This document shows positions 428 to 64,000 of a stretch of DNA of 64,000 nt, piece after piece. The position numbers and the translations under genes are program-made. Positions within the stretch are counted from its first letter, which is position 1; each line of letters begins with the position of its first letter. The DNA is from a virus, in the IMG/VR virus record IMGVR_UViG_3300031730_000001, positions 25,874 to 89,873 of that record; one strand, 5' to 3'. The notes beneath the pieces were generated by a model. The model saw only the letters and a list, made by a program, of their open reading frames with translations. It did no database searches and was not told the DNA's origin.

Positions 428-3400
428 GTGGCCGACCGTACTGTGCGCGTCCGCGTCATCGCCGAGATGCCCGGCTTCGGCACCGTCATTCGCACCGGCA
501 CCGGCGAACTGATCGCCCTCGGGGAAGCCTCCCTGGTTGCCGGACGCGGAATCCGGGCGCTCGGCGCCGACGGCGCGGCGGCCCGCGCCGGGCTGACGGC
601 CATGGGTGCGGGTGCGCGCGGCGGCGCGGCGGGCGTGCGGGAGGGCGAGGCCGCAGCACTGGCTGCCAGCCGTGGCACGCGAGCGATGCGAGACGAGACC
701 GTGCTCGCGCCCGCAGCCTTCGGACGCATGGGTACGGCGGCCCGCACCGGCATGGGATCGGTCCGCTCCGGCGTCGAATCCGTCCTCGGCCCCGTCAAAC
801 ACCTCGGCGCCCTCCTCGCTGGCGGCGCGATCCTGTTCGGCCTGCACGACATCGTCCACGCAGGCAACGAATACACCGACGCGATGAACAAGTTCCTTGA
901 GGTCACACGCGCCTCAGGGGCACAGATGTCGTCGGCAGGCCGCGAAGCCCAGGCCCTCGGCGCCGACATGAAACTGCCGTCGGCGAACGCAGCTGAGGCC
1001 GCTGACGCGATGGTCGAGTTGGCCAAGGCGGGCCTGTCGGCGCAGGACGCCATCCGGGCAGCCCGAGGCACCATCCAGCTCTCCGCCGCCGCTCGAACCG
1101 ACGTCGCAACCGCGGCGAAGATCGAGGGCGACATCATGGACCAGTTCGCCCTCAAGTCCACCGAGGCGACCCACGTAGCGGATGTCCTCGCCAACACGTC
1201 GAACTCGGCGTCCGGCGAACTCATGGACATCTACTATGCGATGAAGTACGTGGGCCCGATCGCCCACACCATGGGCATCTCCATCAAGGACACGGCAACC
1301 GCGGTCGGCCTGCTCGGCAAGTCCGGCATCATCGGCGAAACCGCCGGTACAGCCCTGCGGTCGGCACTGGTCAACATGGCGAAGCCCACGAAGCTGGCCT
1401 CGAAGGGCCTGCACGAACTCGGCATCGAAGCGTTCGACAGCCAGGGCAACTTCAAGGGCCTGCAGTACGTCATCACGAAGCTGGGCGATGCCTCCCACCA
1501 CCTGACCACCCAGCAGTTCACCGCCGCCGCCGCGATGGCGTTCGGCAAGCCCGCCCTTGCGGGCATGGTGGCGCTCGCCCACCAGGGCGGGACTGCGTTC
1601 CAGCAGTTCGGTGTCCAGGTGGGCCGTGTGGGTGGCGCCGCAGCCTTGGCGGCGGCGGAGTCGAAGGGCCTGGGCGGCGCGATGCGCGGCCTGGGCAAGC
1701 AGCTCCAATCCGCCTTCTTGCAGGTGTACTTGGGTGTCGCCCCCGGCCTGGAGAAGATCACCCGGTCGATGACGAAAGGCGTCTCGGACGCCATCCCCTA
1801 CATCAAGAGCGGGATCCGTATCGCCGGAGACCTCTGGGACATCTACGGGCCATCGGTTGAGGCGAAACTCCACTCGGCGTCGAGCGGCATCGGCAAGGCT
1901 GCCGCGAGCCTGGCGAACCCGGTGAAGGCGGCACTCAGTGGGGCGCTCGTCGCCGCCGTGCCGCTGGCCATCACCTCCGTGCAGTCGCTGGAGAAGGTAC
2001 TTTCCAACGCCGGTGCTGCAGCCGCACCGCTCGTCGGCGGCATGCACGACCTGCTCACATCCGTCTCCTCGGGGGCGGGCGCCCTCGGCGTGGCCACAGG
2101 ACGGCTACAGGTCGGCGTCGGCCTGATCGGCGACATGTCCGGCATCCTGCGGCCGATCGGTGCCATCGTCGGCGGCATCGCGCACGCCTTCGCCGGACTG
2201 CCGGGCCCGATCCAACTGTCGATCCTCGCCATGCTCGCCATGCGCCCGTTTCGCGGCCAGATCCAGGGCATGCAGAGCGCGGTCGCCGGCTACGGCCGGT
2301 CGGCGGTCGCCTCGTTCAACGGGGTGCGCGGCGCCATGCAGACGCAGACGATGCTCGCCGCCCGGGCCGGGGTGTCGCTCGGCCGCTGGGGTGCCGGGCT
2401 CGCCTCGCTGGAAGCACGCTCCCCGACGATCGCCGCAATGGGCAACAGCTTCCGCAGCGCCTCCACCGGCATTCAGGAAGCCGGTGGCCGCCTCGTAGGC
2501 TTCCGGTCCGCTGCGGGCGGCGCAATGGCCGCCATCGGTACCGGTGTCGGGCGCGGGCTCATGGGCGGCATGCGCGGACTGTACGGATTCCTCGGCGGCC
2601 CGTGGGGTATCGCCATCGCAGGCGCCATGATCGGCTTGGACATGCTGGCCCGCAAGCAGCAGGAGGCTGCCGCTGCCGCCGCCGCGCACCAGCAGCGGAT
2701 CTCCAGCCTCACCCAGGCGCTGGCAGCGTCCGCCGGCCTGGCGGACGGCTCGGTTCGTGCTGCCGCCGTACAGACGCTGGCTGACGCGAAGCTGAAGGAC
2801 GGCAAAACCCAGCTCCTCAACGTGATGCATGAGGCGGGCGTGGGCACCAGCCAGCTCACAGACGCCTACCTGGGGCAGGGCACGAGCATCGACACGCTTC
2901 AGAAGAAGCTCCTTACCGCAGCCAACGCGAACCGGGAGTGGGTGGCGTCTGGCAAGAACGGCCGCAAGGTGGCGTTCACCGACCAGGGGCAGGCCTACAA
3001 GGACGCCGCTGATGCCCTCGGTAGCCTGTCCGGCGAGTTCGGCACGGCCAAGAAGAAGCAGGCCGACCTGGCCGCCGCAGTGAAGGGCTCGGGCGCTGCC
3101 GCGCTCGACGCAACAGACCCGACGGGTCGGCTACAGACCGCCATCAAGACACTCGGGGACAGCGCCAGCGATGCGGACACGAAGGCGCGCGCGTTGCACA
3201 CCGCCCTCGACCTGCTCTCGGGCGGCGAGCTGGATGTTCAGGCGGCGGTCGCCACCATGAACCAGGCGCTCATCGACCTCAACGGCAGCTACAAGGACGG
3301 CCTCGACCACGCCAAGGGTTACGGCAAGGCTCTTCTCCAGGTCGACGGGTCGCTCAACACGACATCGGAGAACGGGCAGAGCCTGTGGACCAAGTTGCAG

Positions 3401-5719
3401 GCGCTGAACGAGCAGACGGCTGGCGCGGCGCAGTCGACCTACGATTTCGCGCGCGCCAACAATGAGGGCGTCGTCCCGGCCTTGAAGCAGGCCGAGGCCC
3501 GCATGGAGACGTCCTGGAAGGCCGCGGTCACTGCGGGGGAGAAGTTCGGGCTCACCGCGGACCAGGCGAAGGTGCTGGCGGCCCAGATGGGATTCATCCC
3601 GTCGTCGCTGGCCATCACCATGTCGACGCCAGGTCTCAGCGAGACCCAGAAGCAGCTGCTGTATGTGCAGGGCCTCGCCGGGCACATGCCGAAGGGGTCC
3701 ACGATCCGCGTGTCGGCACTCACCGCCGAGGCCAAGGCGGACATCGAGTCCGTCGGCTTCAAGGTGAAGACCCTGCCCGGCGGGCGCCAGATGGAAATCA
3801 CCGCCCCGACAGGGAAGGCCGCCGCCGCCCTGGACGCGCTGATCGCCAAGAAGCTGCCCTCCAAGGCGGTGGGCGTCGACGCCAAGACCGCCAGCGCCAT
3901 GGCGGCTCTGGAGGCCGTCAGGCGGAAGGTGGCAGGGACCAAGGGGAAGTCGATCACTGTTGGCGCGCTGACCGGTGCAGCACAGAGCGCCCTGACCAGC
4001 CTGGGCTTCAAGGTGCAGAGGCTCCCCAACCGTCAGGTCAGGGTGACGCTGCCGACCGGTGGTCCGGCAGCGGCAGCCGCCGCAATCCAGCGCTACATCA
4101 ACAACCTGCACGGCAAGACCGTCACCAACTACGTCAACTCGATCGTGACGACGACGAAGAAGTCCGTCCACGAGGTCGTCGGCAAAGCCGACGGCGGCAT
4201 CGTCAGCTTCTACGCCGACGGCGGCATGCACGAAAACCATGTCGCCCAGATCGCCCGCAAGGGCACGTACCGGGTGTGGGCGGAGGATGAGGCAGGGGAC
4301 GAGGCCTACATCCCTCTCAACCCGGCGAAGCGTGGCCGCTCGCGGCAGATCGCCGCGCAGACGGTCAGCCGGCTCGGCGGGGCTGTCGCCTGGTACGCCA
4401 ACGGCGGCCTGAGCGGATTCACGTACTCGCCGACCGGCCAGCCGGTGCTTGGCGGCCCGTCGGACGCCAAGTCGCGCTACGACCAGGACGTCCAGCGCCT
4501 GAAGGACGCCTGGTCGAAGCTCACCGCTGCGCTGGCGGACGCCAAGAAGAAGACCGACGCCCTCGGCGCCGCGGAGAAAAACCTCTCCCGGGTGCGCCAC
4601 GAGCACCACACGGCAGCCCAGCTGCGGGCCGCCGAGGAGCGTGTCGACAAGGCCCGGTCAGCGAAGAAGGCGGCGGACAAGACGGTCTCCAAAGACCGGG
4701 CCGCCGTCAACGCGGCCGACAAGGATCTCGGACTGAAGAAGGGCGCCAAGGCTCCGACCGGGTTCAACCTGGCCGCCTACCAGGCCGAGCTGAACAAGTC
4801 GGTGGCGGCGACCGAGAAGTGGCGCGGCAACCTGTCGAAGATCTCCAAGCGGGGTGGCGCCGAAGTCGAATCCCTCCTGGAGAACATGGGCCAGGACGGC
4901 TACGCCCTCGTCAACTCGCTGGCCGGAGCATCCACGAAGCAGTTCAACGACATCGTCAAGAAGCTGCAGAAGACCGGCGACGTCGCGAAAGCCACCCTCG
5001 CCGACTTCGACAAGCAGCTCAACGCGAGCACGCAGCAGAACGCGCAGTTCGCCGCCGACCTGCAGAAACTGGCCGCCGAGGGCTATGGGGATCTCGCACA
5101 GGCCCTCGCCGCCCAGGGCGACTCCAACGCGCAGGCCCTCGCCCATGAGGCGGCAGGCAACAGCAAGAGCGCCTCAGCGGCCAACAAGAACGTCGGGAAG
5201 GCGCAGGCCGCACTCACCGGCGACGACCTGACGAACTCGCTGATCCTCCTGTCCACACTGCGCGGCGGCGCGGGCCGCGGCTATGCGGACCTGATCGCGG
5301 CGGGTCTAGGAACGGACGTCATCAAGGCCCTCGTGCCGAAAATGACGAAGCAGATCGCCGCGCTGCCCGACGCGAACAAAGCGGTGTTCGTCCGCCAGTG
5401 GGTGTCGCAGGGCGGCACGGCGATGGCGGCCGGCGGAATCCTCACCAAAGCCACCCCGGTTCTCGCCGGCGAGGCCGGCGTACCCGAGGCGTTCATCCCG
5501 CTCACCCAGACCTCCCGCAGCCGGGCACTGCTTGCAGCCTCCGCCGCCGCGCTCGGCTACCACCTGGTGCCGGCGAGCCGGTATGCGAGCCACGGCTACA
5601 GCGACGGGCGGGCCGGATATGGGGGCGACCGGATCAACAACATCACCCTCAACGGCGCCAAGCAGACCACCGCCGAACAGGCAATGGACATCGCCCGCCA
5701 CATGGCGTTCGTCGGCTGA
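428..5719 (+). CDS. Tape measure protein
   Basis: 1763 aa, Ala/Gly-rich; TP901-type core (AADAMVELAKAG, MKYVGPIA, AGTALRS); C-terminal GG..AGEAG.EA.IPL motifs. Confidence 0.95.
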   Translation: MADRTVRVRVIAEMPGFGTVIRTGTGELIALGEASLVAGRGIRALGADGAAARAGLTAMGAGARGGAAGVREGEAAALAASRGTRAMRDETVLAPAAFGRMGTAARTGMGSVRSGVESVLGPVKHLGALLAGGAILFGLHDIVHAGNEYTDAMNKFLEVTRASGAQMSSAGREAQALGADMKLPSANAAEAADAMVELAKAGLSAQDAIRAARGTIQLSAAARTDVATAAKIEGDIMDQFALKSTEATHVADVLANTSNSASGELMDIYYAMKYVGPIAHTMGISIKDTATAVGLLGKSGIIGETAGTALRSALVNMAKPTKLASKGLHELGIEAFDSQGNFKGLQYVITKLGDASHHLTTQQFTAAAAMAFGKPALAGMVALAHQGGTAFQQFGVQVGRVGGAAALAAAESKGLGGAMRGLGKQLQSAFLQVYLGVAPGLEKITRSMTKGVSDAIPYIKSGIRIAGDLWDIYGPSVEAKLHSASSGIGKAAASLANPVKAALSGALVAAVPLAITSVQSLEKVLSNAGAAAAPLVGGMHDLLTSVSSGAGALGVATGRLQVGVGLIGDMSGILRPIGAIVGGIAHAFAGLPGPIQLSILAMLAMRPFRGQIQGMQSAVAGYGRSAVASFNGVRGAMQTQTMLAARAGVSLGRWGAGLASLEARSPTIAAMGNSFRSASTGIQEAGGRLVGFRSAAGGAMAAIGTGVGRGLMGGMRGLYGFLGGPWGIAIAGAMIGLDMLARKQQEAAAAAAAHQQRISSLTQALAASAGLADGSVRAAAVQTLADAKLKDGKTQLLNVMHEAGVGTSQLTDAYLGQGTSIDTLQKKLLTAANANREWVASGKNGRKVAFTDQGQAYKDAADALGSLSGEFGTAKKKQADLAAAVKGSGAAALDATDPTGRLQTAIKTLGDSASDADTKARALHTALDLLSGGELDVQAAVATMNQALIDLNGSYKDGLDHAKGYGKALLQVDGSLNTTSENGQSLWTKLQALNEQTAGAAQSTYDFARANNEGVVPALKQAEARMETSWKAAVTAGEKFGLTADQAKVLAAQMGFIPSSLAITMSTPGLSETQKQLLYVQGLAGHMPKGSTIRVSALTAEAKADIESVGFKVKTLPGGRQMEITAPTGKAAAALDALIAKKLPSKAVGVDAKTASAMAALEAVRRKVAGTKGKSITVGALTGAAQSALTSLGFKVQRLPNRQVRVTLPTGGPAAAAAAIQRYINNLHGKTVTNYVNSIVTTTKKSVHEVVGKADGGIVSFYADGGMHENHVAQIARKGTYRVWAEDEAGDEAYIPLNPAKRGRSRQIAAQTVSRLGGAVAWYANGGLSGFTYSPTGQPVLGGPSDAKSRYDQDVQRLKDAWSKLTAALADAKKKTDALGAAEKNLSRVRHEHHTAAQLRAAEERVDKARSAKKAADKTVSKDRAAVNAADKDLGLKKGAKAPTGFNLAAYQAELNKSVAATEKWRGNLSKISKRGGAEVESLLENMGQDGYALVNSLAGASTKQFNDIVKKLQKTGDVAKATLADFDKQLNASTQQNAQFAADLQKLAAEGYGDLAQALAAQGDSNAQALAHEAAGNSKSASAANKNVGKAQAALTGDDLTNSLILLSTLRGGAGRGYADLIAAGLGTDVIKALVPKMTKQIAALPDANKAVFVRQWVSQGGTAMAAGGILTKATPVLAGEAGVPEAFIPLTQTSRSRALLAASAAALGYHLVPASRYASHGYSDGRAGYGGDRINNITLNGAKQTTAEQAMDIARHMAFVG

Positions 5720-14003: not shown

Positions 14004-15357
14004 TCGCCAGAAGGGGGGCGACTAGCCGCCCAGTAAGTGCCTTGACCTGCACTTTTGATGCTAGAATGGGTCAACTTAGCTTCTGCTGGAGGGTGTTGCC
14101 TTGCTGACGGGTCGTCGCTACCGGCTCGCGCTCACGCCCGAGACAGGAGGCGCAGTGCGAGGAGTACGCCAACACCTGCCGCGCCGTATGGAACACCGGC
14201 CTCGAACAACGCCGGGAGTATCGGCGGCGCGGGGCGTGGATGAACTTCGTGCCACAGTGCGCCGAGCTCGCGGAGGCCAGGCAGGCGCTTGAGTGGCTGC
14301 GCGCCGCGCCTTCCTGCATTCATCAACAGACGTTGCGGGACCTTGAACAAGCCTGCCGCGAGCGCGGCACGTGGAAAGTGCGATGGCGGTCGAAGGCGCG
14401 CTGGAGCCCGTCGTTTCGCTTTCCTGACAGGAGATGGCTTCGCGTAGAGCGGCTTGGCCGCAAGTGGGGCCGGGTCAAGCTGCCAAAACTCGGATGGGTC
14501 CGCTTCCGTTGGTCGCGCCCCCCGGGCGGTGAGATCCACTCCGCCACGGTGTCCCGAAAAGGTGCGCACTGGTTCGTTTCCCTCCTGATAGACGACGGTC
14601 GGGAGGTGCCCGAGAAGCACGCCATGCCGAACACGGCGGTAGGCATAGATCGGGGCGTGAAGGTCGCCGCAGTCACCTCCGATGGCGCGTTCCATGACCG
14701 GGAGTTCATCACTGCTGGCGAGGCCGGCCGGTATCGACGGTTGCAGCAGAAGCTAGCCCGCTCCAGGCGTGGATCCGCGAACCGGCGCAAGACCATCACG
14801 GCCATGGGCCGAATCACGAGCCGAGCGTCAGACCGCCGTGGTGACTTCTGCGCCTTCACCGCGAACCGCATCACCGGGCGGAACGCCGTGGTGGTGCTGG
14901 AAGACCTCAAGATAAAAAACATGACCGCATCGGCGTCCAGAACTCTGGACGAGCCGGGTGAGCGAGTCGCTCAGAAGCGCGGCCTGAACCGCAGCATCCT
15001 CGACAAGGGGTGGAGCCGCCTTGGGCTCGCCCTTGCCAACGCCGCCCGATACACGGGCACCTCCGTGGTTCTGGTTAATCCCGCGTACACCTCGCAGCGT
15101 TGCCACGCCTGCGGGTTCGTCACTGAAGGCAACCGCGAGAGCCAAGCGGTCTTCGTGTGCAAGAACCCTGGGTGTGGCCACGCAGACCATGCCGACGTGA
15201 ACGCCGCAAAGAACATCCTCAGCGCCGCAGGGCATGTGGTGCCAGCCTGTGGAGACCTCGCCGTTGGGCGGTCCGCGAAGCAGGAACCCGGAGGCCGGGC
15301 GACCGGCCGAACCCTTCGTTTGGGAATCTCCGGCCTCCATGCCGGAGAGGAAGCCAA
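14004..15357 (+). mobile_element. IS200/IS605-family (IS1341-like, tnpB only) insertion
   Basis: TTGAC at 13999-14003, hairpin 14016-14031, tnpB, right-end hairpin TCTCCGGC...GCCGGAGA followed by GGAAGCCAA; ends are inferred. Confidence 0.7.
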
Positions 15358-15394
15358 CTGCTCGTCAGCCTGTCCACCCTCCCTCTGCCTCTGA
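14101..15394 (+). pseudogene. tnpB: RNA-guided endonuclease TnpB with a 1-nt frameshift at about 14143
   Basis: MLTGRRYRLALTPE continues as QEAQCEEYANTCRAVWN only after skipping A14143; RuvC GID / LEDL / HADVNAA and zinc finger intact. Confidence 0.85.
15230..15377 (+). ncRNA. Putative TnpB omegaRNA/reRNA scaffold plus guide
   Basis: Typical GGAGACCT...GAAGCAGGAAC...GGAATC-hairpin architecture overlapping the tnpB 3' end; boundaries approximate. Confidence 0.55.
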
Positions 15395-15405
15395 CCGGCA
15401 CGACT

Positions 15406-15437
15406 GCGCCCCCGCTGCCTTCGGGCGGTGGGGGCGC
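15406..15437. terminator. Hairpin between convergent genes
   Basis: GCGCCCCCGCTGCC-TTCG-GGCGGTGGGGGCGC. Confidence 0.6.
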
Positions 15438-15441
15438 TTCC

Positions 15442-16050
15442 TCACGTCCCGTCGGTGAACGGCGGATTCTCCAGGTGCCGGGCGAGGATCCATTCCTCGT
15501 CGCCGCGGCGGCAGGTCAGGATGAGCCGGATCGGCTTGCCGACGTACTCGCCTTGCCACATGGCCTGGGACTTGCCCTCCATCCAGCGCCCGGGCCTGGT
15601 GCGCTGCATCGCGCGTTGCGTCCCAGTACCCACGTCGAGCGGGAAGGCTTCGGGCCCGCGCCCGTGCTCGTCGGTTCCGTTGCTGCCGTGTGAGAAGCGG
15701 AAGGGCCCCCAGACGAAGGCGTCGACGTCGGCCTGCGTCACGTTCCTCTCCGGGTGGAGGACATTGCGTTCCTTGTCGTCGTCGCCGACGACTATGCGTA
15801 CCTCGTCGAGGCGGCGCAGCGCGTCGGGCCCGCTGAGATGCACGTTGAGGAGGGCCTGGCCGTTGCCGGTATCTATCAGCTCAAGGTCGAACTGCGGCGT
15901 CAGCTCGGCGTGCCACCGGTCCTGCTCGATGTGGGTCATGGCGTCCGCGGTCTCCGCGGATCGGTGGGCGGCGAGCCATGCGCCGGCCGTCGCGACCGCA
16001 CTGAGGGCGGCCGTAGAGAAGGTGGCGACGTCGCCCCAATGGATGCTCAT
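15442..16050 (-). CDS. Hypothetical protein with N-terminal TM helix (moron)
   Basis: MSIHWGDVATFSTAALSAVATAGAWLAA; flanked by hairpins. Confidence 0.7.
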   Translation of the reverse strand: MSIHWGDVATFSTAALSAVATAGAWLAAHRSAETADAMTHIEQDRWHAELTPQFDLELIDTGNGQALLNVHLSGPDALRRLDEVRIVVGDDDKERNVLHPERNVTQADVDAFVWGPFRFSHGSNGTDEHGRGPEAFPLDVGTGTQRAMQRTRPGRWMEGKSQAMWQGEYVGKPIRLILTCRRGDEEWILARHLENPPFTDGT

Positions 16051-16100
16051 GCGGCGGGAGCGTAGCGGGAGTTGACCGCTGGCGAACCCGGCACGACAAC

Positions 16101-16146
16101 GCCCCGCCCTCTCACTGCCTTCCGGCGGCGGGGGAGCGGGGCTTTT
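16101..16146. terminator. Hairpin terminator
   Basis: GCCCCGC...GCGGGGC followed by TTTT. Confidence 0.55.
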
Positions 16147-16163: not shown

Positions 16164-16346
16164 CTACTCCCGTTCGCGGATCGCCTGCGCCAGGTCTCTG
16201 ATCGCCGCCCCGACGGCTAGGAGGGCGTGCACCTGGGCCCTGGCAAGCAGCGCTGCCTGATCGCCGGAGCCGTCTTCTCTGGCGTGGCTGTCGTCCAGGT
16301 TGTTGAGTGCTCGCGCCTGTAGCTGGTCGTACCTTCGCTCTGTCAT
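16164..16346 (-). CDS. Hypothetical protein
   Basis: 60 aa helical ORF with GAGG SD. Confidence 0.55.
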   Translation of the reverse strand: MTERRYDQLQARALNNLDDSHAREDGSGDQAALLARAQVHALLAVGAAIRDLAQAIRERE

Positions 16347-16478
16347 GGCCGCCCTCTCGTCTACTACAGGGCGAGAGTCTGCCGAAGGTGGGCCCATCTG
16401 TCAGGAGGGCCTCGGCGACTTCATAGCGCATAACGCCTTGTGAAGCGCGCCGAGTTGACCGGGTTCGGCATTCTCCAC

Positions 16479-16510
16479 CGCTACAGAATAATGACCGTTA
16501 TCCTGTAGCG
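16479..16510. other. dif/lox-like tyrosine recombinase core site (13-6-13 inverted repeat)
   Basis: CGCTACAGAATAA-TGACCG-TTATCCTGTAGCG, one mismatch between arms, abutting the recombinase ATG. Confidence 0.75.
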
Positions 16511-17551
16511 ATGAACACGCTTCCCGTCATCCGATCCACCGGGACCAGCCCCGACCGTCCAACCCAACGGGCCATCACGCTCCGCGGCAGGCCGCCCGCT
16601 TCGACCCCCGACGCACTGCTCGCGCTACTCGCTGAGGCCGGCGCCGGGCCCACCGTCCTGAAGGCCACCCGATCGTGGCTCGCCAAGCGCCCGAGTGGGC
16701 ACAGCAAGACCGCCTACGCCAAAGACGCCGCCTGGTGGCTCGCCTTCTGTGCCGCCAGTGACACCGACCCCACGCGCGCACGGGCCACCGACGCCGACGA
16801 CTACGAAACGGCGCTCCGCGAGACAGGCCTGGCCAAGTCAACTCGTGGGCGCCGCCTGGCTGCCGCGTCGAGCTGGTACACCTACCTGATCCGCGCGGAC
16901 GTCGCCGACCGGAACCCATTCGAGGGGATGGAGCGACCCTCAGTCTCCGCCGACGACTCACCCACCCGCGGACTCACCGCCGACCAGCTCGGCAGGCTGC
17001 TCAACCACGCCCGCGCTCGCGAGTCGACGCGCACCTATGCCCTGCTCGTCACGCTCGCCACCACCGCGGGTCGCATCGGCTCCGTCCTCGCTCTCACCGT
17101 AGGCAAGCTTGGCCACGACCAGGGTCACCGCGTCGCCGACCTGATCGTGAAGGGCGACAAGACCAAGCGCGTCGTCCTGGTCCCGCTCGCCGTCGAGGCC
17201 ATCGACCGCCACATGGACGGTCGACCCCTCCAGGACGACGACTATGTGTTCGCCACCAGTACCGGGCGGCCGATGGACGAACCGGCCGCCTTCCGTCTCG
17301 TTCGACGCGTAGCCGGGGCGGCAAGGCTTCCGCACGCCGACCAGTTGTCGCCCCACTCGCTGCGCCACTCCTACGCAACGGCGCTCCTGAGCAAGGGCGT
17401 CCCCCTCGCGGATGTGCAGGACGCCATGGGGCACGCAGACCCGCGCACCACTCGCCGCTACGACCGGGCCGCCGGGGCACTCGACCGCTCGCCGTCATAC
17501 AAGATGCAGGACGAGATCACGGCCGCGATGCGGGCTGCGGAGGGTGAGTAA
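16511..17551 (+). CDS. XerC/D-like tyrosine recombinase
   Basis: R (AGRI), K (VKGDK), HSLRH, GHAD and TTRRY catalytic motifs; no arm-binding domain evident. Confidence 0.92.
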   Translation: MNTLPVIRSTGTSPDRPTQRAITLRGRPPASTPDALLALLAEAGAGPTVLKATRSWLAKRPSGHSKTAYAKDAAWWLAFCAASDTDPTRARATDADDYETALRETGLAKSTRGRRLAAASSWYTYLIRADVADRNPFEGMERPSVSADDSPTRGLTADQLGRLLNHARARESTRTYALLVTLATTAGRIGSVLALTVGKLGHDQGHRVADLIVKGDKTKRVVLVPLAVEAIDRHMDGRPLQDDDYVFATSTGRPMDEPAAFRLVRRVAGAARLPHADQLSPHSLRHSYATALLSKGVPLADVQDAMGHADPRTTRRYDRAAGALDRSPSYKMQDEITAAMRAAEGE

Positions 17552-17816
17552 CTGCCGCCCCGTTCTGTCATGCTGGGAGCAGCCCGCCTCGTCCCCCCGT
17601 CGAGGCGGGCGCTCGCGCGTTCACTCTTGGTTGAAGTTGACGCCCCGAATTTCAAGGTTGCGGCCCTACAGTTGAACTTGCGGCATCCGGGTGGAAGACC
17701 CGGCGCTCACGCCTCGCGCCGCTTGGGAGGTGGCCCGACTGCCCTCGTGGAGTCGGAGAACCCCTGTGCCGCATCGAGTGGCTGTCCGCGCCGACGCGCG
17801 GGCGGCCACTTGCACG

Positions 17817-18002
17817 TCACCCCTTCGGTTCCGGCAACACCCCCGGCTTGACCGGCACGATCTCCACGTCGGTGGCGCCGCCCGTCTCCAGCTCCGCCTT
17901 CCGCTGCCCAGCGCTGGCTTGGTCGTAGGCGACAGCGGACGCGCGGTGCGCCCCGTCTGGGTCGGTCCAGGTGAGGGCGAAGCTCTTCATGGTGGTCGTC
18001 AT
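17817..18002 (-). CDS. Hypothetical protein
   Basis: 61 aa ORF with GC3-biased codons. Confidence 0.55.
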   Translation of the reverse strand: MTTTMKSFALTWTDPDGAHRASAVAYDQASAGQRKAELETGGATDVEIVPVKPGVLPEPKG

Positions 18003-18037
18003 GCGCTCATCATCGCTGCCGGGCCTGACAGTCACCG

Positions 18038-18160
18038 TCAGACGAACCGGCGCATTCGCGGGTCGAGCTTTCCGAGGGTGCACATCCACACCATCATGTC
18101 CATCATCCCGAAGCTGAGCCGCAGCGACAGCCGCACCAGCGAGATCGCCAATCCGATCAT
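18038..18160 (-). CDS. Small hydrophobic peptide
   Basis: 40 aa MIGLAISLVRLSL..., AAGGGG SD. Confidence 0.4.
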   Translation of the reverse strand: MIGLAISLVRLSLRLSFGMMDMMVWMCTLGKLDPRMRRFV

Positions 18161-22499: not shown

Positions 22500-22802
22500 C
22501 TGGGAGTCTGGGAGACGGATTGGGAGACGATCACACTGGCGGAACCCAACGAAACACCCAACGAATCCGACGGTAGCCAGAGAGAAATGGGCTCTATGCT
22601 GGAGAGACGCCAGATCGTCGCAGGTAAGGAAGGCTCAACGAAGAGTCTGGGGCGACGCGGGGGATCGTCTCAGGCGGGCGGCGTGAGGGCCAGCGGACGG
22701 TCACGCGGCCCCACTTCCCGCCCAGCAGGACACGCGTAGAGGACTGATCCCGGAGTCGTCAGAGTGATCTTCATTCTTGGGCTTGGGAGATTTCTGGGAG
22801 AT
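22500..22802. other. Putative attP with integrase arm-type repeats; core not identified
   Basis: TGGGAG(A) at 22501, 22509, 22521 and at 22784, 22795, adjacent to the integrase 3' end. Confidence 0.65.
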
Positions 22803-24075
22803 CCACTTGCGGTCCGCGCTCCGACCGGCGCGGGCGGGGCTCCTCCCACTCCCGGTGGTGGTCCCTCACGCCCGCCGAGGCCTCCCACAGCTTCTGCAGA
22901 TCCGCCGCGATGTCCAGCTCCATCGGCAGCGTCGTGTGGCTGTAGGTCCCCTCAACTCCAGGGATAACGTGCCGCATCCGCTCCTCGACCGCAACCCGCG
23001 GGTGCTTCAGCTCATCGAGCCACACCTTCATGCTGTGGCGCAGCCCGTGCGGCACGATGTCCTCGATCCCCGCCACGGCCCTCATGTCCGGCAGTCGCGC
23101 AGGGCGGCCGAGCTTGTCCGGCGTCGCCGTGTGGCCGTCCACCCAGCGGCGCCAGATGTCCGTGTAGAAGTAGGCGCTCGTCGACATCTTCTTGCCGTTG
23201 GCCGAGGGGAACACCCAAGGCGACTTGTGCGAGGCCAGCACCTCTCCCAGTAGTTCGGCGAGGAACGGAGGGATGATCAGGCTTCCCGAGCTGCCGTACT
23301 TCGGATCCACCTGCGCCGGCTTGCCGCCCACGTACTGGTGCTGTTCCTCCACCAGCAGCCGGAAACCCTGCCCGTGGTCTTCGAGGATGAGGTGTTCGCG
23401 GCGCAGGCCGGCCGCCTCGGATATCCGGAGCCCGCAGTAGGCGATCGTGAGAACCAGGGCGTAGCCGACGATGCCGCGCATGGCGCGGGCGTTGCGGGCC
23501 AGCAGCAGGGCCTGGCGCGGGGTAGCAAGGACTGTGTCGTCCTTCTTCGGCTTGCCCTTGTACTTGCCGCGCCGACGGGCCTTCAGTGTGGGCACCGGGT
23601 TGTCGCCGATCACCTTCGAGGTGACGGCGTCGTCGAACATGACCCGCATCACCGACATGACGCTCTTTACGTACCGGGGCTTGTAGCGCTTGCGCAGCTG
23701 CTGCTCCCACGTCTTCACAGCGACCGTGGACACATCGGCCATGGCGGTCGGCTCCCACCTGGGGAGGATCACGGACCGGAGGCGTTGCCGGTACGTCTTG
23801 TCGCTGCGGTTGGCGAGCTCCACCGACTCGATCCACAGTTCGGACCAGTCGCCGACCGTGATGCGGCCGTCCTTCGGGTTGATGAACTTCTTGCGGCGCA
23901 CGTCGGTTTCGAGGCCGGCCGCATACTTCGTGGCGGCGTTGGCGCTGTAGAAGGGCTGCCCGAGATCGTCACGACTGACGGAGCCGTAGTTGATGCCGTC
24001 GGGCAGCAGGTAGCGCCCGCGGTATCGGTACTTGCGAGCCTTCTTGTCGTAGCCGCGCTTCTCTGGGTACGCCAT
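22771..24075 (-). CDS. int: Tyrosine integrase
   Basis: N-terminal arm-binding region; CGLRISE, PHGLRH, MRH and GTYSH motifs. Confidence 0.93.
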   Translation of the reverse strand: MAYPEKRGYDKKARKYRYRGRYLLPDGINYGSVSRDDLGQPFYSANAATKYAAGLETDVRRKKFINPKDGRITVGDWSELWIESVELANRSDKTYRQRLRSVILPRWEPTAMADVSTVAVKTWEQQLRKRYKPRYVKSVMSVMRVMFDDAVTSKVIGDNPVPTLKARRRGKYKGKPKKDDTVLATPRQALLLARNARAMRGIVGYALVLTIAYCGLRISEAAGLRREHLILEDHGQGFRLLVEEQHQYVGGKPAQVDPKYGSSGSLIIPPFLAELLGEVLASHKSPWVFPSANGKKMSTSAYFYTDIWRRWVDGHTATPDKLGRPARLPDMRAVAGIEDIVPHGLRHSMKVWLDELKHPRVAVEERMRHVIPGVEGTYSHTTLPMELDIAADLQKLWEASAGVRDHHREWEEPRPRRSERGPQVDLPEISQAQE

Positions 24076-24460: not shown

Positions 24461-25018
24461 TTACGAACCGTTGGCAGCCTGAGGCTCGCCGTTGTCATCG
24501 TCGTCATCGGGAAGGCGACGCAGATTCTCTTCTGTCCGGCGCCAGGCGAGCAGCGCGTCCTGGATCTGCTGCGGCGTGGCGTCGGGGCTGCCGTGCACGA
24601 CCACGGTCATGCGGGCGCCGTTGGCGCCGGGCAGCTGGATGACGGTGGAATCGACCAGGGGGTCGTCGGACTCCAGTTCGTCCACGATCCGCAGCGAGTA
24701 CTTCCGCCGCAGCTTGTCCGCTTCCGCTCCGCCGCGGTCACCGGCCGGGACGTCCGAGGCGGGGATGGGCTCGCCGCCGTCGAGGACCAGGCGGCCCGAC
24801 CCGGCTTCCCATCCAAGATGTGGCTCGATCTTGGCCAGGGTTTGGGGCATACGGCCGCGCGGCTTGCCGGCTTCGAGGTTTTGGACGCTGCCCTCGCTGA
24901 CGCCGGCGCGTTCGGCGAGCTGAGGCTGTGTGAGACCACGGCCTTCGCGTGCCGCCCGGATGGCGGTTCCGAGTGCGGCCCAGTGCAGCTTGGTCCGGTC
25001 CTCTGTCATGGCCCTCAT
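24461..25018 (-). CDS. Immunity repressor (XRE HTH)
   Basis: IRAAREGRGLTQPQLAERAGVSEGSVQNLE; divergent from the Cro-like gene. Confidence 0.85.
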   Translation of the reverse strand: MRAMTEDRTKLHWAALGTAIRAAREGRGLTQPQLAERAGVSEGSVQNLEAGKPRGRMPQTLAKIEPHLGWEAGSGRLVLDGGEPIPASDVPAGDRGGAEADKLRRKYSLRIVDELESDDPLVDSTVIQLPGANGARMTVVVHGSPDATPQQIQDALLAWRRTEENLRRLPDDDDDNGEPQAANGS

Positions 25019-58908: not shown

Positions 58909-59487
58909 ATGAACCCCACCATCCGCCAGTTCGCCGTCTCGGGCAGTGCGGCCGTAGCCCTCCTCGGAGGCGCCGCAGCCATCACTACCGTGGCCGCGCC
59001 GTCCGCGTCCGCCGCCGAGCAGGCCACCGTCACTCGCGCCGCCACCGCACCCGTGCAGATGCCCGACGGCCGTACCGTCCGGATCACCGGCATGGGCGGC
59101 TACGGCCACCAGGCCACCGGCGCGCACATCGCCACCGTCGCCGCGTTCGAGACCGACACCAGCCCCGGTGTCGGCTCAGGCCTCACCCCCGACGGCGGCG
59201 CAGGCGCAGCCATCGGCAACCCGGTCACCGGCACCCAGACCGGCTACAACCAGCAGGTCACCACCCAGGCCACCGGTGCCGGCGTCGCGACCGGTGTCGT
59301 CGCGATCCTCGTCCTCGGCATCATCGTCTTCTTCAAGGTCAAGCACGGCCACGTCAAGGCCATGGACGCCGTCGTCGTCGCCCTGTTCGGGATCGCCATC
59401 TCCGGCACGGTCATCGGCGGCATGGGCGGCTCGCTCACCAACTCCCTCGTCGGCTCGATGGGCTCCATGCTCAGCGGCCTCGGCTAG
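58909..59487 (+). CDS. Exported/membrane protein of the transfer module
   Basis: Signal-peptide-like N-terminus (ASA); two C-terminal TM helices (ILVLGIIVFF..K..DAVVVALFG). Confidence 0.6.
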   Translation: MNPTIRQFAVSGSAAVALLGGAAAITTVAAPSASAAEQATVTRAATAPVQMPDGRTVRITGMGGYGHQATGAHIATVAAFETDTSPGVGSGLTPDGGAGAAIGNPVTGTQTGYNQQVTTQATGAGVATGVVAILVLGIIVFFKVKHGHVKAMDAVVVALFGIAISGTVIGGMGGSLTNSLVGSMGSMLSGLG

Positions 59488-59548
59488 CCACATCTCACGG
59501 CGGCGCCCACCCGGGGCGCCGCCCCCGACCCCAGGAAGGAACCCGGCC

Positions 59549-61729
59549 GTGGCCACCGAAGCCCAGCCCGACATGGAGAAGCAGCCGACCGAGGCGGCCA
59601 CCGAGCCCACTCGCGGCGACCGCATCAAGGCCGCGTTCGCCGTGCAGCGTGGCCACGTCAGCGCCCGCACCAAGGACTGGCTCGCCACCGGCGACCTCGA
59701 CGAACTCGACATCCTGCAGCTCGCCGCCGAACGCAAGCAACGCAAGCACAACGAGAAGATCGTCCACCAGAACCGGATCGTCGCCGAAGCGCACGGAAAC
59801 CTCTACAACGCCAAGCTGCAGGCCGAGAACGGCGACGGCGGCAACGGTGCCGTGTCGCGTCTGGGAGGTCGCGTGGCTGCGGAAGAGGCCAAGCTCGCCG
59901 CACTCCAGAACACAATCGTGATGCCTCCGACCGACCGTGAGATCAACATGGTCCGCCACACCAAGAAGGCGACCCGGGGCGCCATCCTCGCTGGCGGCGG
60001 CCTCGCATCGCTGCCCATGCTGGGCACTGCGATCGAGATGACCGCCAACGGTCAGCCGCTCATCCTCGCCGCCCTCGGCACGGCCGCCGGCTACGGCTGG
60101 TACCTGGTCTCGCGCCCTTTCGTCGACGGCCAGCCTGCACCTGCCCCGAGCATGGAGACGCAGCTGGCCGCCCCGGTCGACATGGTGAAGACCGAGCAGC
60201 CGGGGATGCGGGAGTTCAACGCCCCGCCGCCGCCCGCGTGCACCGTGCCGCAGCTTGAGGAAGCCCTCCGCAAGATCGGCATGGTGAAAGGTGACGAGCA
60301 GCTCGCGATTCTCGCCGTGCCGCAGCGGGAGAAGGACGGCAACACCACCGTCGTCTTCGACCTGCCCGCAGGCCAGACTGTCGCCAAACTCCAAGACAAG
60401 ATCGAGGTGTTCGCCGGCGCGATCGGCCGCGACTCCGCCATGGTCGACATCGAGAAGAAGGGCAGCGCAGTCCGCACCAGCCTGTGGATCGCCGACCAGG
60501 ACCCGTTCGAAGATGTCCGGCCTTCACCGCTCCTGAAGAAGCCCACCCAGTTGGACGCCTTCAAGGACGGCGTGCCGGTCGGCTGGGGCAAGCGGGGCAA
60601 CACCATCCTGCTGCCCATCAGCACCTCCAACACGGTGATCGGCGGCACGACCCGCTCCGGCAAGGGCGTCGGCGCATCCAACCTGGTCGTCGGCGCCGCC
60701 TTCGACCCGCGCATCAACCTGCGGATCATCGCAGGTAAGCAGAACGGTGAATGGGACGCCTACGCCAAGGCCGGAGTCGCATCCACCTACTTCAAGCCCG
60801 ACCCGGACAGGCTCGTCGCCCTCCTGGAAGCCGAGATCGCCGACAAGAACAGGCGCGAAGTCGAACTCGGTCGCCTCGGCAAGAGCAAGCTCGTTGCGCC
60901 CGCCATTGAGCAGATCGGCGGCATTGAGCTGATCGTGATCGACGAAGGGGCGACATACACCAGGTCGAAGAAGCATCGCCGTGACGAGATCATGGAGAGG
61001 CTGGTCCTGCTCGCGTCGGTTGCCGCTGGTGCAGGCATCCTCATCGTCTTCATCACGCAGTACCCGAACGCCGACGTCTTCCCGAGCGAACTCGCCGTCA
61101 ACTTCACGACCAGCTGGGCGATGCGCGTCGACAATGCGGAGCAGTCGAACGCCATCCTCGGCAAGGGCCAGTCGGGCATGGGGCGTGACGCCTCCAAGTT
61201 CGATCCGCCGCGGCCCGGCCTCGGCTGGCTGGTCAATCCGTTCGCGGGGATCACCGACAAGGCCCGCAGCTTTGACATCGACGAGGACGACCGCAGCGAG
61301 ATCACGATGCTGCTAGAGAAGGCGGCGAAGATCCGCGAGAAGGCGGGCCGGCTGGCCGGGCAGTGGGACGACCCGATCGAGCAGCACCTCCTCAACGCCA
61401 CCGGCCTGTCGTCGGCAGCCGGCGGCCCGAAGCGGGACGGCATCCCGGGCCGGAACGTCCTCAACCACACGCCGGAGCAGCGCATGCAGATGGACGCGCT
61501 GCGCGGCTGCCTCGTCGCGATGAACGACCTCGGCCGGGATGTGGCGCAGCTCGACGAGATGGCCCAGGTCATCGGCGGCGGCATGGCGGAGGAGCGTCTC
61601 GGCGAGTTGCTTCGAGCGGCCGGGGCCGGCGGAACGGTCAAGGTCACGATTCCGGGGTTGCGGAACCGCGTGAACGGCTACAAGCGGGCGGACATCGCCG
61701 ACGCGCTCGAACTCCTCGAAGGCAACTAG
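59549..61729 (+). CDS. traB: TraB-like FtsK/SpoIIIE DNA translocase
   Basis: Two N-terminal TM helices, Walker A GGTTRSGKG, Walker B LIVIDE, TQYP, C-terminal wHTH-like end (GYKRADI). Confidence 0.82.
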   Translation: MATEAQPDMEKQPTEAATEPTRGDRIKAAFAVQRGHVSARTKDWLATGDLDELDILQLAAERKQRKHNEKIVHQNRIVAEAHGNLYNAKLQAENGDGGNGAVSRLGGRVAAEEAKLAALQNTIVMPPTDREINMVRHTKKATRGAILAGGGLASLPMLGTAIEMTANGQPLILAALGTAAGYGWYLVSRPFVDGQPAPAPSMETQLAAPVDMVKTEQPGMREFNAPPPPACTVPQLEEALRKIGMVKGDEQLAILAVPQREKDGNTTVVFDLPAGQTVAKLQDKIEVFAGAIGRDSAMVDIEKKGSAVRTSLWIADQDPFEDVRPSPLLKKPTQLDAFKDGVPVGWGKRGNTILLPISTSNTVIGGTTRSGKGVGASNLVVGAAFDPRINLRIIAGKQNGEWDAYAKAGVASTYFKPDPDRLVALLEAEIADKNRREVELGRLGKSKLVAPAIEQIGGIELIVIDEGATYTRSKKHRRDEIMERLVLLASVAAGAGILIVFITQYPNADVFPSELAVNFTTSWAMRVDNAEQSNAILGKGQSGMGRDASKFDPPRPGLGWLVNPFAGITDKARSFDIDEDDRSEITMLLEKAAKIREKAGRLAGQWDDPIEQHLLNATGLSSAAGGPKRDGIPGRNVLNHTPEQRMQMDALRGCLVAMNDLGRDVAQLDEMAQVIGGGMAEERLGELLRAAGAGGTVKVTIPGLRNRVNGYKRADIADALELLEGN

Positions 61730-63735: not shown

Positions 63736-63948
63736 ATGACCATGGCCAGCCTCAGGGAAACCGCAGTCGCCCTCAACGTTGAGTACGAGATGAGGCGACG
63801 CGCCGGAGCGCCCACCGACGACTTCCTCACCAAAACGGTCGTCCCCGCCACCAAGCGGGCAGTCGCCGCCGGCGCCGACTTCGACACCATCCAGGCCGAC
63901 GCCGACCGCGAGTTCGGGCAGTGGCTCATCGACAACGCCGGAAGGTAG
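63736..63948 (+). CDS. Hypothetical protein
   Basis: 70 aa ORF. Confidence 0.45.
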   Translation: MTMASLRETAVALNVEYEMRRRAGAPTDDFLTKTVVPATKRAVAAGADFDTIQADADREFGQWLIDNAGR

Positions 63949-64000
63949 GGAGATTCGTCATGGGATTCCTGGAACGCCGCGCCACCCGGGCCTGGCATGA

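What the first reader, a model, noticed from the sequence alone, without database searches (positions are those of the whole stretch)
16479..17551. Second tyrosine recombinase with its own dif/lox-like site abutting the start codon
Seen: CGCTACAGAATAA-TGACCG-TTATCCTGTAGCG (13-6-13, one mismatch) ends at the base before the ATG of an intact Xer-like recombinase, and a further GCGCATAA half-site lies at 16426-16433. No second copy was noticed in the window. Known: ATAA-N6-TTAT is the inner signature of Xer/dif sites, and Cre/loxP resolves P1 dimers. Inference: a single-enzyme resolution or circularisation system for an extrachromosomal phase, probably autoregulated, and a candidate new Cre-like tool.
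Basis: partly seen in the sequence, partly recalled or inferred. Interest (0 to 1): 0.72.

Follow-up and report, generated by a model that had tools for sequence, protein, structure and literature searches.

The report
Xer-like recombinase with its own site
A Streptomyces phage carries, besides its normal integrase, a small self-contained unit of one Xer-type DNA recombinase and a conserved 28-base palindrome on the gene's promoter, most likely a private system for separating joined circular copies, of a known general kind but an uncharacterised family.

Summary
CGCTACAGAATAA-TGACCG-TTATCCTGTAGCG lies at 16479-16510 and the ATG of an intact 346-aa tyrosine recombinase at 16511. It is the only copy in the 89.9-kb phage record.

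The palindrome is not chance. In 14 distinct close relatives the 28-nt core is 96% conserved, against 50% upstream and 65% in the first codons. Of 47 IMG/VR homologue loci, 25 have an 11-6-11 ATAA/TTAT site at the head of the recombinase gene or operon, with none elsewhere in 0.52 Mb. The arms differ between lineages.

The same unit sits on circular Streptomyces plasmids.

The phage has a separate classical integrase with an attP core of about 40 bp that matches Streptomyces chromosomes.

The motif is nearly absent from host genomes, and no XerD equivalog was found in 5 of 5.

Best reading (0.55): a Cre/loxP-like, probably self-repressing, dimer-resolution unit. No recombination was shown. Main rival: it is the integrase in relatives that show no other recombinase.

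This scan reported the same family before on another Streptomyces prophage (e1-5849404). It is a new member of a known kind.

The parts
16479..16510 (+). 13-6-13 palindrome (12 of 13 arm positions pair). The conserved core is 11-6-11, CTACAGAATAA-TGACCG-TTATCCTGTAG, at 16481-16508. It is the candidate recombination core site and operator.
   Evidence: The 28-nt core has a mean majority frequency of 0.96, with 22 of 28 positions invariant, in 14 distinct relatives. Equivalent sites lie upstream of homologues.
16511..17551 (+). Xer-like tyrosine recombinase, 346 aa, with the catalytic R-K-H-R-H-Y set intact and no arm-binding domain detected.
   Evidence: Pfam; invariant residues; XerC, XerD and XerA models at 86-122 bits, far below cut-offs of 220-335; best solved relatives XerD 1a0p, XerA 5hxy, XerH 5jjv.
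16487..16492 (+). -10-like hexamer AATAAT, made of the last bases of the left arm plus the first spacer base T, with -35-like TCGGCA at 16465-16470. Inferred promoter inside the site.
   Evidence: one promoter-like match against 0.1 expected from shuffles. The first spacer base T is kept in most sites when read in gene orientation. Inference only; no transcript data.
16499..16504 (+). Alternative -10-like hexamer TATCCT in the right arm, ending 6 nt before the A of the ATG. This would give a leaderless mRNA.
   Evidence: Read. The spacing TTATCCTGT + 4 nt + ATG is fixed in all 9 close loci and in 5 of 6 more distant Streptomyces loci. Inference only.
16426..16433 (+). Lone GCGCATAA half-site-like octamer. 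It overlaps the ATG (16431-16429) of a long minus-strand ORF that is probably not coding here.
   Evidence: It recurs in 3 of 9 close loci only. Role unknown.
17582..17611 (+). G+C-rich hairpin about 30 nt after the stop codon, a possible terminator that closes the unit.
   Evidence: 10-bp stem, whole 89-nt fold z = -1.78, which is weak. It is not conserved in relatives.
16164..16397 (-). Small divergent ORF (77 aa, or 60 aa from the ATG at 16347). It has no family match and is not conserved next to homologues.
   Evidence: GC-frame signal; no Pfam; no PHROG; upstream flanks differ between loci.
22771..24075 (-). The phage's other, classical integrase (434 aa). It is not part of the unit and is listed because it bears on its role.
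   Evidence: Phage_integrase and Phage_int_M; phrog_1 integrase.
22645..22685 (.). attP core of the classical integrase: about 40 bp, 92-100% identical to chromosomal DNA of Streptomyces genomes, lying 86-126 nt beyond the integrase stop.
   Evidence: matches to query 1389-1429 in 6 of 61 genomes searched; alignment with three host loci.

Best explanation
The palindrome is the recombinase's own simple core site. Two monomers bind the two 11-bp arms, and strands are exchanged across the 6-bp asymmetric spacer. There is one copy per replicon, so the productive reaction is between the two copies on a dimer or multimer of the circular phage or plasmid DNA. That reaction returns monomers, as Cre/loxP does in P1, MrpA/mrpS in SCP2 and XerS/difSL in streptococci. 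The -10 hexamers of the gene lie inside the site and the ATG follows within 2-4 nt, so bound recombinase should also shut off its own promoter. The unit is a portable cassette, shared by Streptomyces phages, a 13.5-kb conjugative plasmid and large circular plasmids. It is useful in hosts that appear to offer no XerCD/dif machinery to borrow. Shown: the anatomy, conservation, co-occurrence, single copy, a separate integrase with its attP, and a circular assembly. Inferred: binding, recombination, direction of the reaction and self-repression.
For: (1) Site and gene are one conserved unit. All 9 close loci have the site followed by 4 nt and ATG, while their upstream flanks are unrelated. In 14 distinct sequences the site scores 0.96, upstream 0.50 and the first codons 0.65. 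Downstream DNA is not conserved.

(2) Across 47 IMG/VR homologue loci (31-78% identity), 19 have an 11-6-11 ATAA/TTAT palindrome within 700 nt upstream. Six more have one 1.9-2.5 kb upstream, at the head of an operon. There were 0 hits elsewhere in about 0.52 Mb. Arms differ between lineages while staying palindromic, for example CTACAGAATAA, ATGCATGATAA, CTACACCATAA and GGTCGATAA.

(3) An exact-site scan of metagenomes gave 17 loci, 13 with a homologue directly downstream.

(4) The enzyme is Xer-like with no arm-binding domain. The site has the Xer 11-6-11 geometry.

(5) The site is single-copy in the phage, in 5 of 5 related virus records and in a 37,165-bp circular element.

(6) Of 44 plasmids with a homologue at E<=1e-12 I looked at 10. 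Eight are circular, one is linear, and one is a head-to-tail double record of a 13,482-bp TraB/prim-pol plasmid whose only annotated recombinase is this one. Eight of the 10 carry the site. In one it sits beside a ParA gene.

(7) The phage needs no second integrase: it has Int with an attP core.

(8) The record's two ends share 243 bp with one mismatch, so it closes into a circle of 89,630 bp. A TraB-like FtsK/SpoIIIE gene is present.

(9) ATAA-N6-TTAT occurs only 1-5 times per genome in 5 Streptomyces genomes. In 2 of them the only occurrence is this site. No XerD equivalog was found at E<=1e-40 in 5 of 5, while the Corynebacterium control did match.

(10) Precedent: MrpA/mrpS resolves SCP2 multimers (passages in PMC3218068, and PMC4685060).
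Against: No experiment or read-level evidence of recombination exists; everything rests on comparison.

No ParA or ParB was found in the phage or in 5 relatives, so a stable plasmid phase is not shown.

In two 'provirus' records rated 100% complete (G402, G404) this enzyme is the only PF00589, PF07508 or PF00239 match. This would fit an integrase role. However, their ends map to the place where this phage has its integrase and repressor, so an integrase may have been trimmed off.

The site is nearly identical upstream of Streptomyces recombinases only 31-40% identical to this one. It is therefore more conserved than the protein, which could mean an extra constraint such as promoter function or a host factor.

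Twenty-two of 47 more distant loci showed no site by my criterion, and 2 of 10 plasmids had none.

The 10 plasmids were picked from the hit list and are not a random sample. I have no baseline for circular versus linear topology.
Confidence: 0.55

Rival explanations
1. The enzyme is an integrase, the main one in relatives and a spare one here. It acts at an attP elsewhere, for example downstream of the gene. The palindrome is then only its operator and promoter.
For: In G402 and G404 (provirus records rated 100% complete) it is the only recombinase detected. In G402 the gene lies 1.8 kb from the record end. PHROG and NCBI name the homologues 'integrase'. The 13.5-kb plasmid has the gene set of an integrative conjugative element and no other annotated recombinase.
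Against: No arm-binding domain was detected. Downstream DNA is not conserved between relatives. In G404 the gene is about 9 kb from the record end. The ends of G402 and G404 coincide with the integrase/repressor position of this phage, so a trimmed integrase is likely. The tRNA-like gene next to the recombinase in L012 belongs to a TROVE/Rsr module and is not an attB. A recombinase bound as a dimer to an 11-6-11 site is by construction a core site. The unit sits on stably circular plasmids.
Confidence: 0.2
2. The palindrome is an attachment or fusion site. The enzyme joins the phage to another DNA carrying a like site: a host dif-like site, or another plasmid or phage of the same family. This would give integration or cointegrates.
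For: Near-identical sites sit on unrelated Streptomyces replicons: phages, a TraB plasmid, large plasmids and a chromosome arm. Simple sites recombine between molecules as well; MrpA multimerises an mrpS plasmid in E. coli (PMC4685060 passage). Upstream DNA changes at the left edge of the site.
Against: No hybrid or duplicated site was seen. The site is intact and single in two provirus records with phage DNA on both sides and in a chromosome arm. The only 'double' case is the overlap of a circular contig. In 2 of 5 Streptomyces genomes there is no other ATAA-N6-TTAT at all. Only 8 of 401 genomes hold the 24-mer within 3 mismatches.
Confidence: 0.1
3. The palindrome is an operator for some other protein, or a chance inverted repeat, with no role in recombination.
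For: It overlaps -10-like hexamers. It is better conserved than the recombinase.
Against: The recombinase gene is the only constant neighbour; upstream genes differ in every lineage. The Xer-type ATAA-N6-TTAT signature is kept while the outer arm bases change. Chance is excluded.
Confidence: 0.05

Closest known systems
Cre/loxP of phage P1 (own knowledge; no paper read here)
   Same: A phage-borne single tyrosine recombinase with a simple palindromic site next to its gene, one copy per genome, kept beside other means of maintenance. Proposed roles are dimer resolution and cyclisation.
   Different: No detectable sequence relation: Cre is not among the 11 PDB matches at E<=1e-3. The spacer is 6 bp and the arms 11-13 bp with an ATAA/TTAT inner signature, as in dif, not 13-8-13. 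The site touches the start codon. The host phage also has a classical integrase and no ParAB was found.
MrpA/mrpS of Streptomyces coelicolor plasmid SCP2 (Warth et al. 2011, seen only as cited in PMC3218068 and PMC4685060)
   Same: Same host genus. A plasmid-borne tyrosine recombinase with a short site that resolves or forms multimers without host factors in E. coli. The gene lies near parA.
   Different: Only a catalytic-motif match: BLASTP E = 0.002 over 80 residues (SCP2.07c). The DNA upstream of mrpA shows a different inverted repeat. It is an analogue, not a relative.
Single-recombinase Xer modules: XerS/difSL, XerH/difH and archaeal XerA/dif (abstracts listed)
   Same: One Xer-type enzyme genetically linked to an 11-6-11-type site. 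The closest solved relatives are XerD, XerA and XerH.
   Different: Those are chromosomal, at the terminus, and mostly FtsK-controlled. This one is on phages and plasmids. Scores are far below family cut-offs: XerS 33.8 against 267, XerA 86 against 220.
Tyrovirus gp50 of Bacillus phages (PMC9703825, passages read)
   Same: A temperate phage with several tyrosine recombinases. One Xer-like enzyme has an 11-6-11 perfect inverted repeat abutting the gene. Its function is also unknown.
   Different: There the site lies just after the stop codon, the gene sits inside the structural module, and the authors call it a putative attP. The hosts are Firmicutes.

Membership tests
XerC/XerD chromosomal dimer-resolution recombinases | Sequence reaches the curated equivalog score | tested here: not met
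   XerC 116.6 bits against a cut-off of 335; XerD 114.5 against 329.6; PRK00283 122.3 against 279.
XerC/XerD chromosomal dimer-resolution recombinases | Acts at a chromosomal dif at the replication terminus under FtsK control | tested here: not met
   The gene and site lie on a phage record and on plasmids. FtsK dependence is not testable here.
Xer-type core site | Two roughly 11-bp inverted arms around a 6-bp spacer with inner ATAA...TTAT | tested here: met
Single-recombinase Xer modules (XerS, XerH, XerA) | Gene adjacent to its own site | tested here: met
Single-recombinase Xer modules (XerS, XerH, XerA) | Sequence membership in XerS or XerA models | tested here: not met
   XerS 33.8 against 267; XerA 86.4 against 220.
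Cre-like phage/plasmid resolvases | Homology to Cre | tested here: not met
   no Cre chain among 11 PDB matches at E<=1e-3.
Cre-like phage/plasmid resolvases | Recombines two simple sites without accessory factors | not testable with these tools
   Needs a reporter assay.
MrpA/mrpS (SCP2) | Homology to MrpA and a like site | tested here: not met
Lambda-type phage integrases | N-terminal arm-binding domain | tested here: not met
   One search shows only SAM_1 (57-129) and the catalytic domain (155-320). XerD aligns from residue 55.
Lambda-type phage integrases | attP next to the gene sharing a core with a host attB | tested here: not met
   For this gene, the site has no host counterpart and the downstream DNA is not conserved. 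The other integrase of the phage does meet this feature.
Integron integrases | Sequence reaches the family score | tested here: not met
   TIGR02249 44.7 against 265.

The most novel reading that the evidence does not exclude
Streptomyces, with linear chromosomes and (in the 5 genomes tested) no XerD equivalog or dif-type motif, offers circular replicons no host resolution system. Its phages, conjugative plasmids and large plasmids therefore share one portable Xer/dif cassette. Many unrelated replicons carry almost the same 24-bp site, so the cassette would also act as a common docking point. It would fuse phage and plasmid DNA into cointegrates and so drive mosaics such as this tailed phage that carries a TraB/clt conjugation module.
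Probability: 0.15. Interest if true: 0.65.

Novelty: new member of a known kind. Interest (0 to 1): 0.42.

Why it matters
If the enzyme recombines its 28-bp site unaided, it is a compact recombinase/site pair from high-G+C actinomycetes. It shows no detectable sequence relation to Cre, and natural arm and spacer variants are already catalogued here. That would be useful for Streptomyces genome engineering.

Biologically it would show how circular mobile DNA copes in a host whose linear chromosome seems to have dispensed with XerCD/dif. It also marks a cassette that links phages, integrative conjugative elements and plasmids.

The general principle, a private simple-site resolvase on a mobile replicon, is well known. 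This scan has already reported the same family on another Streptomyces prophage, so the surprise is moderate.

Tried and rejected
A tRNA-Val 325 nt after the recombinase gene in L012 looked like an attB. It is the tRNA-like partner of a TROVE/Rsr gene, which also occurs upstream of the recombinase in L007. Rejected.

Two copies of the site 37 kb apart in G146 looked like attL and attR. The contig's first and last 15,002 bp are identical, so it is one copy on a 37,165-bp circle. Rejected.

pZL12/pSLE1-type plasmid-phage idea. The size of about 90 kb and the two 'integrases' fit (PMC4487206 passages). But no ParA or ParB was found here, and the pSLE1 recombinase is only 41.7% identical over residues 110-336. 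Left open.

SCP2 MrpA as a homologue. Rejected.

Shufflon or inversion of tail-fibre genes. No second site exists in the record. Rejected.

End repeats for attL and attR in G402, G404 and G406. Nothing longer than 14 nt was found.

Sequencing runs. No RNA holder was listed. Only Logan contigs could be laid. The source run covers the stretch in one contig. Contigs of three other soil and root runs match the flanks (15400-16140 and 17815-18100) and then run on unlike, leaving the unit uncovered. No contig joins across it, so this says nothing firm.

Literature. Seven searches found no description of this family or site. Passages in PMC11894783 and PMC7174722 say nothing on Xer/dif in Streptomyces. 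Zhong et al. 2010 (pZL12) is not held, and Warth et al. 2011 was seen only through citations. The mrpS oligonucleotide sequences are in supplements of PMC4685060, which are closed, so I could not compare mrpS with this site letter by letter.

Rfam on three host attB loci gave no family, and ARAGORN found no tRNA.

The count (3 of 401 genomes with a close homologue) is a lower bound, because only 5 candidates per genome were scored.

Full report
**What is there.** The window is the last 64 kb of an 89,873-bp IMG/VR virus record. Its two ends share 243 bp with one mismatch, so it closes into a circle of 89,630 bp. IMG/VR calls it linear.

It is a high-G+C (about 69%) temperate siphophage of Streptomyces type. 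Its parts are:
- tape measure at 428-5719 and tail genes;
- a TnpB gene at 14240-15394;
- the Xer-like recombinase at 16511-17551;
- small genes;
- a classical 434-aa integrase at 22771-24075 (minus strand);
- a CI-like repressor at 24461-25018 (minus strand);
- early genes: antirepressor, RecT, exonuclease, methylase, DpdA;
- a TraB-like FtsK/SpoIIIE gene at 59168-61729.

The source is a root metagenome.

**The observation.** The arms are 13 nt with one mismatch, the spacer is TGACCG, and the ATG is the next base. The ORF is an intact tyrosine recombinase with the SAM-like core-binding domain and all catalytic residues. The site is unique in the record and is not expected by chance.

**Is the palindrome tied to the enzyme?** Close homologues (60-87% identity) are numerous in Streptomyces assemblies and soil metagenomes. 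They are sporadic, however: a close homologue was found in 3 of 401 genomes (a lower bound), and the 24-nt site within 3 mismatches in 8 of 401.

In all 9 close loci I could read, the palindrome is followed by 4 nt and the ATG, while the DNA upstream is unrelated between lineages. These loci are the window, seven IMG/VR records and one plasmid. The DNA downstream is also unrelated. In 14 distinct sequences the 28-nt core scores 0.96, the 42 nt upstream 0.50 and the first 70 coding nt 0.65. Only spacer positions 5 and 6 and the outermost arm bases vary.

An alignment-based scan of IMG/VR gave 64 loci. I analysed the 47 with 31% identity or more:
- 19 have an 11-6-11 palindrome, with at least 7 of 8 inner ATAA/TTAT bases and at least 8 of 11 paired arm positions, within 700 nt upstream.
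- 6 more have one 1.9-2.5 kb upstream, on the same side.
- 22 have none by this rule.
- No such site occurs anywhere else in the roughly 0.52 Mb of these loci.

The arms change between lineages and stay palindromic. Where the site is distant, another gene sits between it and the recombinase, so the site still heads the operon. The intervening gene is a DUF6221 gene in pSLE1 and pSAM1. In a 37-kb circular element and in a chromosome arm it is a cysteine-rich protein.

An exact-pattern scan of metagenome contigs found 17 loci, 13 with a homologue right behind the site. Of the other four, one looks like rRNA by my eye, two carry another ORF, and one contig is too short to tell. The recombinase gene is the only constant neighbour of the site.

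**What kind of enzyme and site?** The protein matches the XerC, XerD and XerA models but far below their cut-offs. Its closest solved relatives are XerD, XerA and XerH. It has about 55 residues ahead of the XerD-like part. The site has the dif geometry.

A simple Xer-like enzyme with an 11-6-11 site next to its gene is the layout of the single-recombinase Xer modules and, in function, of Cre/loxP.

**Which reaction?** Integration at the palindrome is unlikely. The site is intact and single, with phage DNA on both sides, in two provirus records and in a chromosome arm. The one apparent pair of sites is a contig overlap. Host genomes hardly contain the motif at all: 1-5 ATAA-N6-TTAT per genome in five genomes, and in two of them the only one is this site.

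The phage has its own integration module. About 40 bp lying 86-126 nt beyond the 434-aa integrase gene are 92-100% identical to chromosomal DNA in 6 of 61 Streptomyces genomes searched.

The unit lives on bona fide circular plasmids. Of 44 plasmid records with a homologue I opened 10:
- 8 are circular, 36.7-358 kb, and include the plasmid-phage-like pSLE1 and pSAM1.
- 1 is linear (414 kb) and has no site.
- 1 is a doubled record of a 13,482-bp TraB/prim-pol/GntR plasmid whose only annotated recombinase is this one.

Eight of the 10 have the site. In one it lies next to a ParA gene.

Five of five Streptomyces genomes gave no XerD equivalog at E<=1e-40, while Corynebacterium in the control did match. 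This fits linear chromosomes that need no dif, and circular guests that must bring their own resolvase. Streptomyces has a precedent in MrpA/mrpS of SCP2 (passages). MrpA is not a relative of this enzyme.

**Regulation.** A -35/-10 scan finds TCGGCA-16-AATAAT, with the -10 formed by the end of the left arm and the first spacer base. The right arm holds TATCCT, ending 6 nt before the ATG. The spacing from site to ATG is fixed even in Streptomyces recombinases only 31-40% identical. Either promoter would be covered by bound recombinase. Self-repression is an inference.

**Evidence against, told in full.** Nothing shows recombination.

No ParA or ParB was found in the phage or in five relatives.

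In G402 and G404 the enzyme is the only recombinase found, and in G402 it lies 1.8 kb from the record end. I think the true integrase was trimmed, for three reasons. Both records end at gene boundaries, in the segment where this phage has GntR, Int and CI. In G404 the Xer-like gene is about 9 kb from the end. Neither record holds this phage's attP core. I could not fetch the untrimmed contigs.

The site is better conserved than the protein across Streptomyces lineages. This hints at an added constraint.

**Comparison and novelty.** It works like Cre/loxP, MrpA/mrpS and XerS/difSL. By sequence it is a member of none of them. I found no paper on this family. The pSLE1 paper only notes 'two putative integrases'.

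Earlier notes of this scan describe the same unit on another Streptomyces prophage, with the same verdict (e1-5849404), and on two further genomes (e1-6109655, e1-6022706). My verdict rests on my own calls.

**Verdict.** This is a new member of a known kind, of moderate interest.

Noticed in passing
G000 ends: 1-243 and 89631-89873 of the record (window 63758-64000 is the right copy): The record's two ends are a 243-bp direct repeat with one mismatch. The assembly therefore closes into a circle of 89,630 bp, although IMG/VR labels it linear.
   Followed up: partly
window 22645-22685: An attP core of about 40 bp just beyond the 434-aa integrase is 92-100% identical to chromosomal DNA in 6 of 61 Streptomyces genomes. 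The host feature is neither a tRNA nor an Rfam family.
   Followed up: partly
window 14240-15394: A TnpB gene (OrfB_IS605 plus Cas12f1-like TNB domain) lies between the tail genes and the recombinase unit. Its third-position G+C (0.77) is lower than that of the phage genes. Its guide RNA and element ends were not looked for.
   Followed up: no
window 59168-61729: An 853-aa FtsK/SpoIIIE-like protein (phrog_1358) is up to 59% identical to TraB-like genes on Streptomyces plasmids. This suggests a conjugation-type DNA translocase on a tailed phage. It was also flagged by another note of this scan.
   Followed up: partly
L012 7366-9171; L007 3302-5169: Relatives carry a TROVE (Ro60/Rsr-like) gene preceded by a tRNA-like gene. 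ARAGORN calls it tRNA-Val in L012 and tRNA-Ser in L007. It lies on either side of the recombinase unit. It is probably an Rsr/Y-RNA-type module (that name is recalled, not tested).
   Followed up: partly
L077, L078, L079, L081 (Streptomyces genomes G312, G172, G165, G048): Behind the same palindrome, the first 20 or so codons (MLTPxQN..SGESP..PG) are shared by different proteins. It is a recombinase in L078 and L081, and a 364-aa cysteine-rich protein followed by the recombinase in L077. The conserved block therefore extends about 70 nt into the first ORF.
   Followed up: no
L073 = NZ_CP108534.1: The 26,964-bp 'linear plasmid' record is an exact head-to-tail double of a 13,482-bp unit: every feature recurs at +13,482. 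This is either an assembly artefact or a real dimer.
   Followed up: no
Streptomyces genomes G312, G048, G172, G165, G144: No XerD equivalog was found at E<=1e-40 in 5 of 5 genomes, and there are only 1-5 ATAA-N6-TTAT motifs per genome. These linear-chromosome hosts may lack a canonical Xer/dif system.
   Followed up: partly
L136 (NZ_CP107908.1) 2614-4895; L103 (pSLE1) 2629-5034: On some plasmids a second 'site-specific integrase' gene lies directly beside the Xer-like one. These could be paired recombinases.
   Followed up: no
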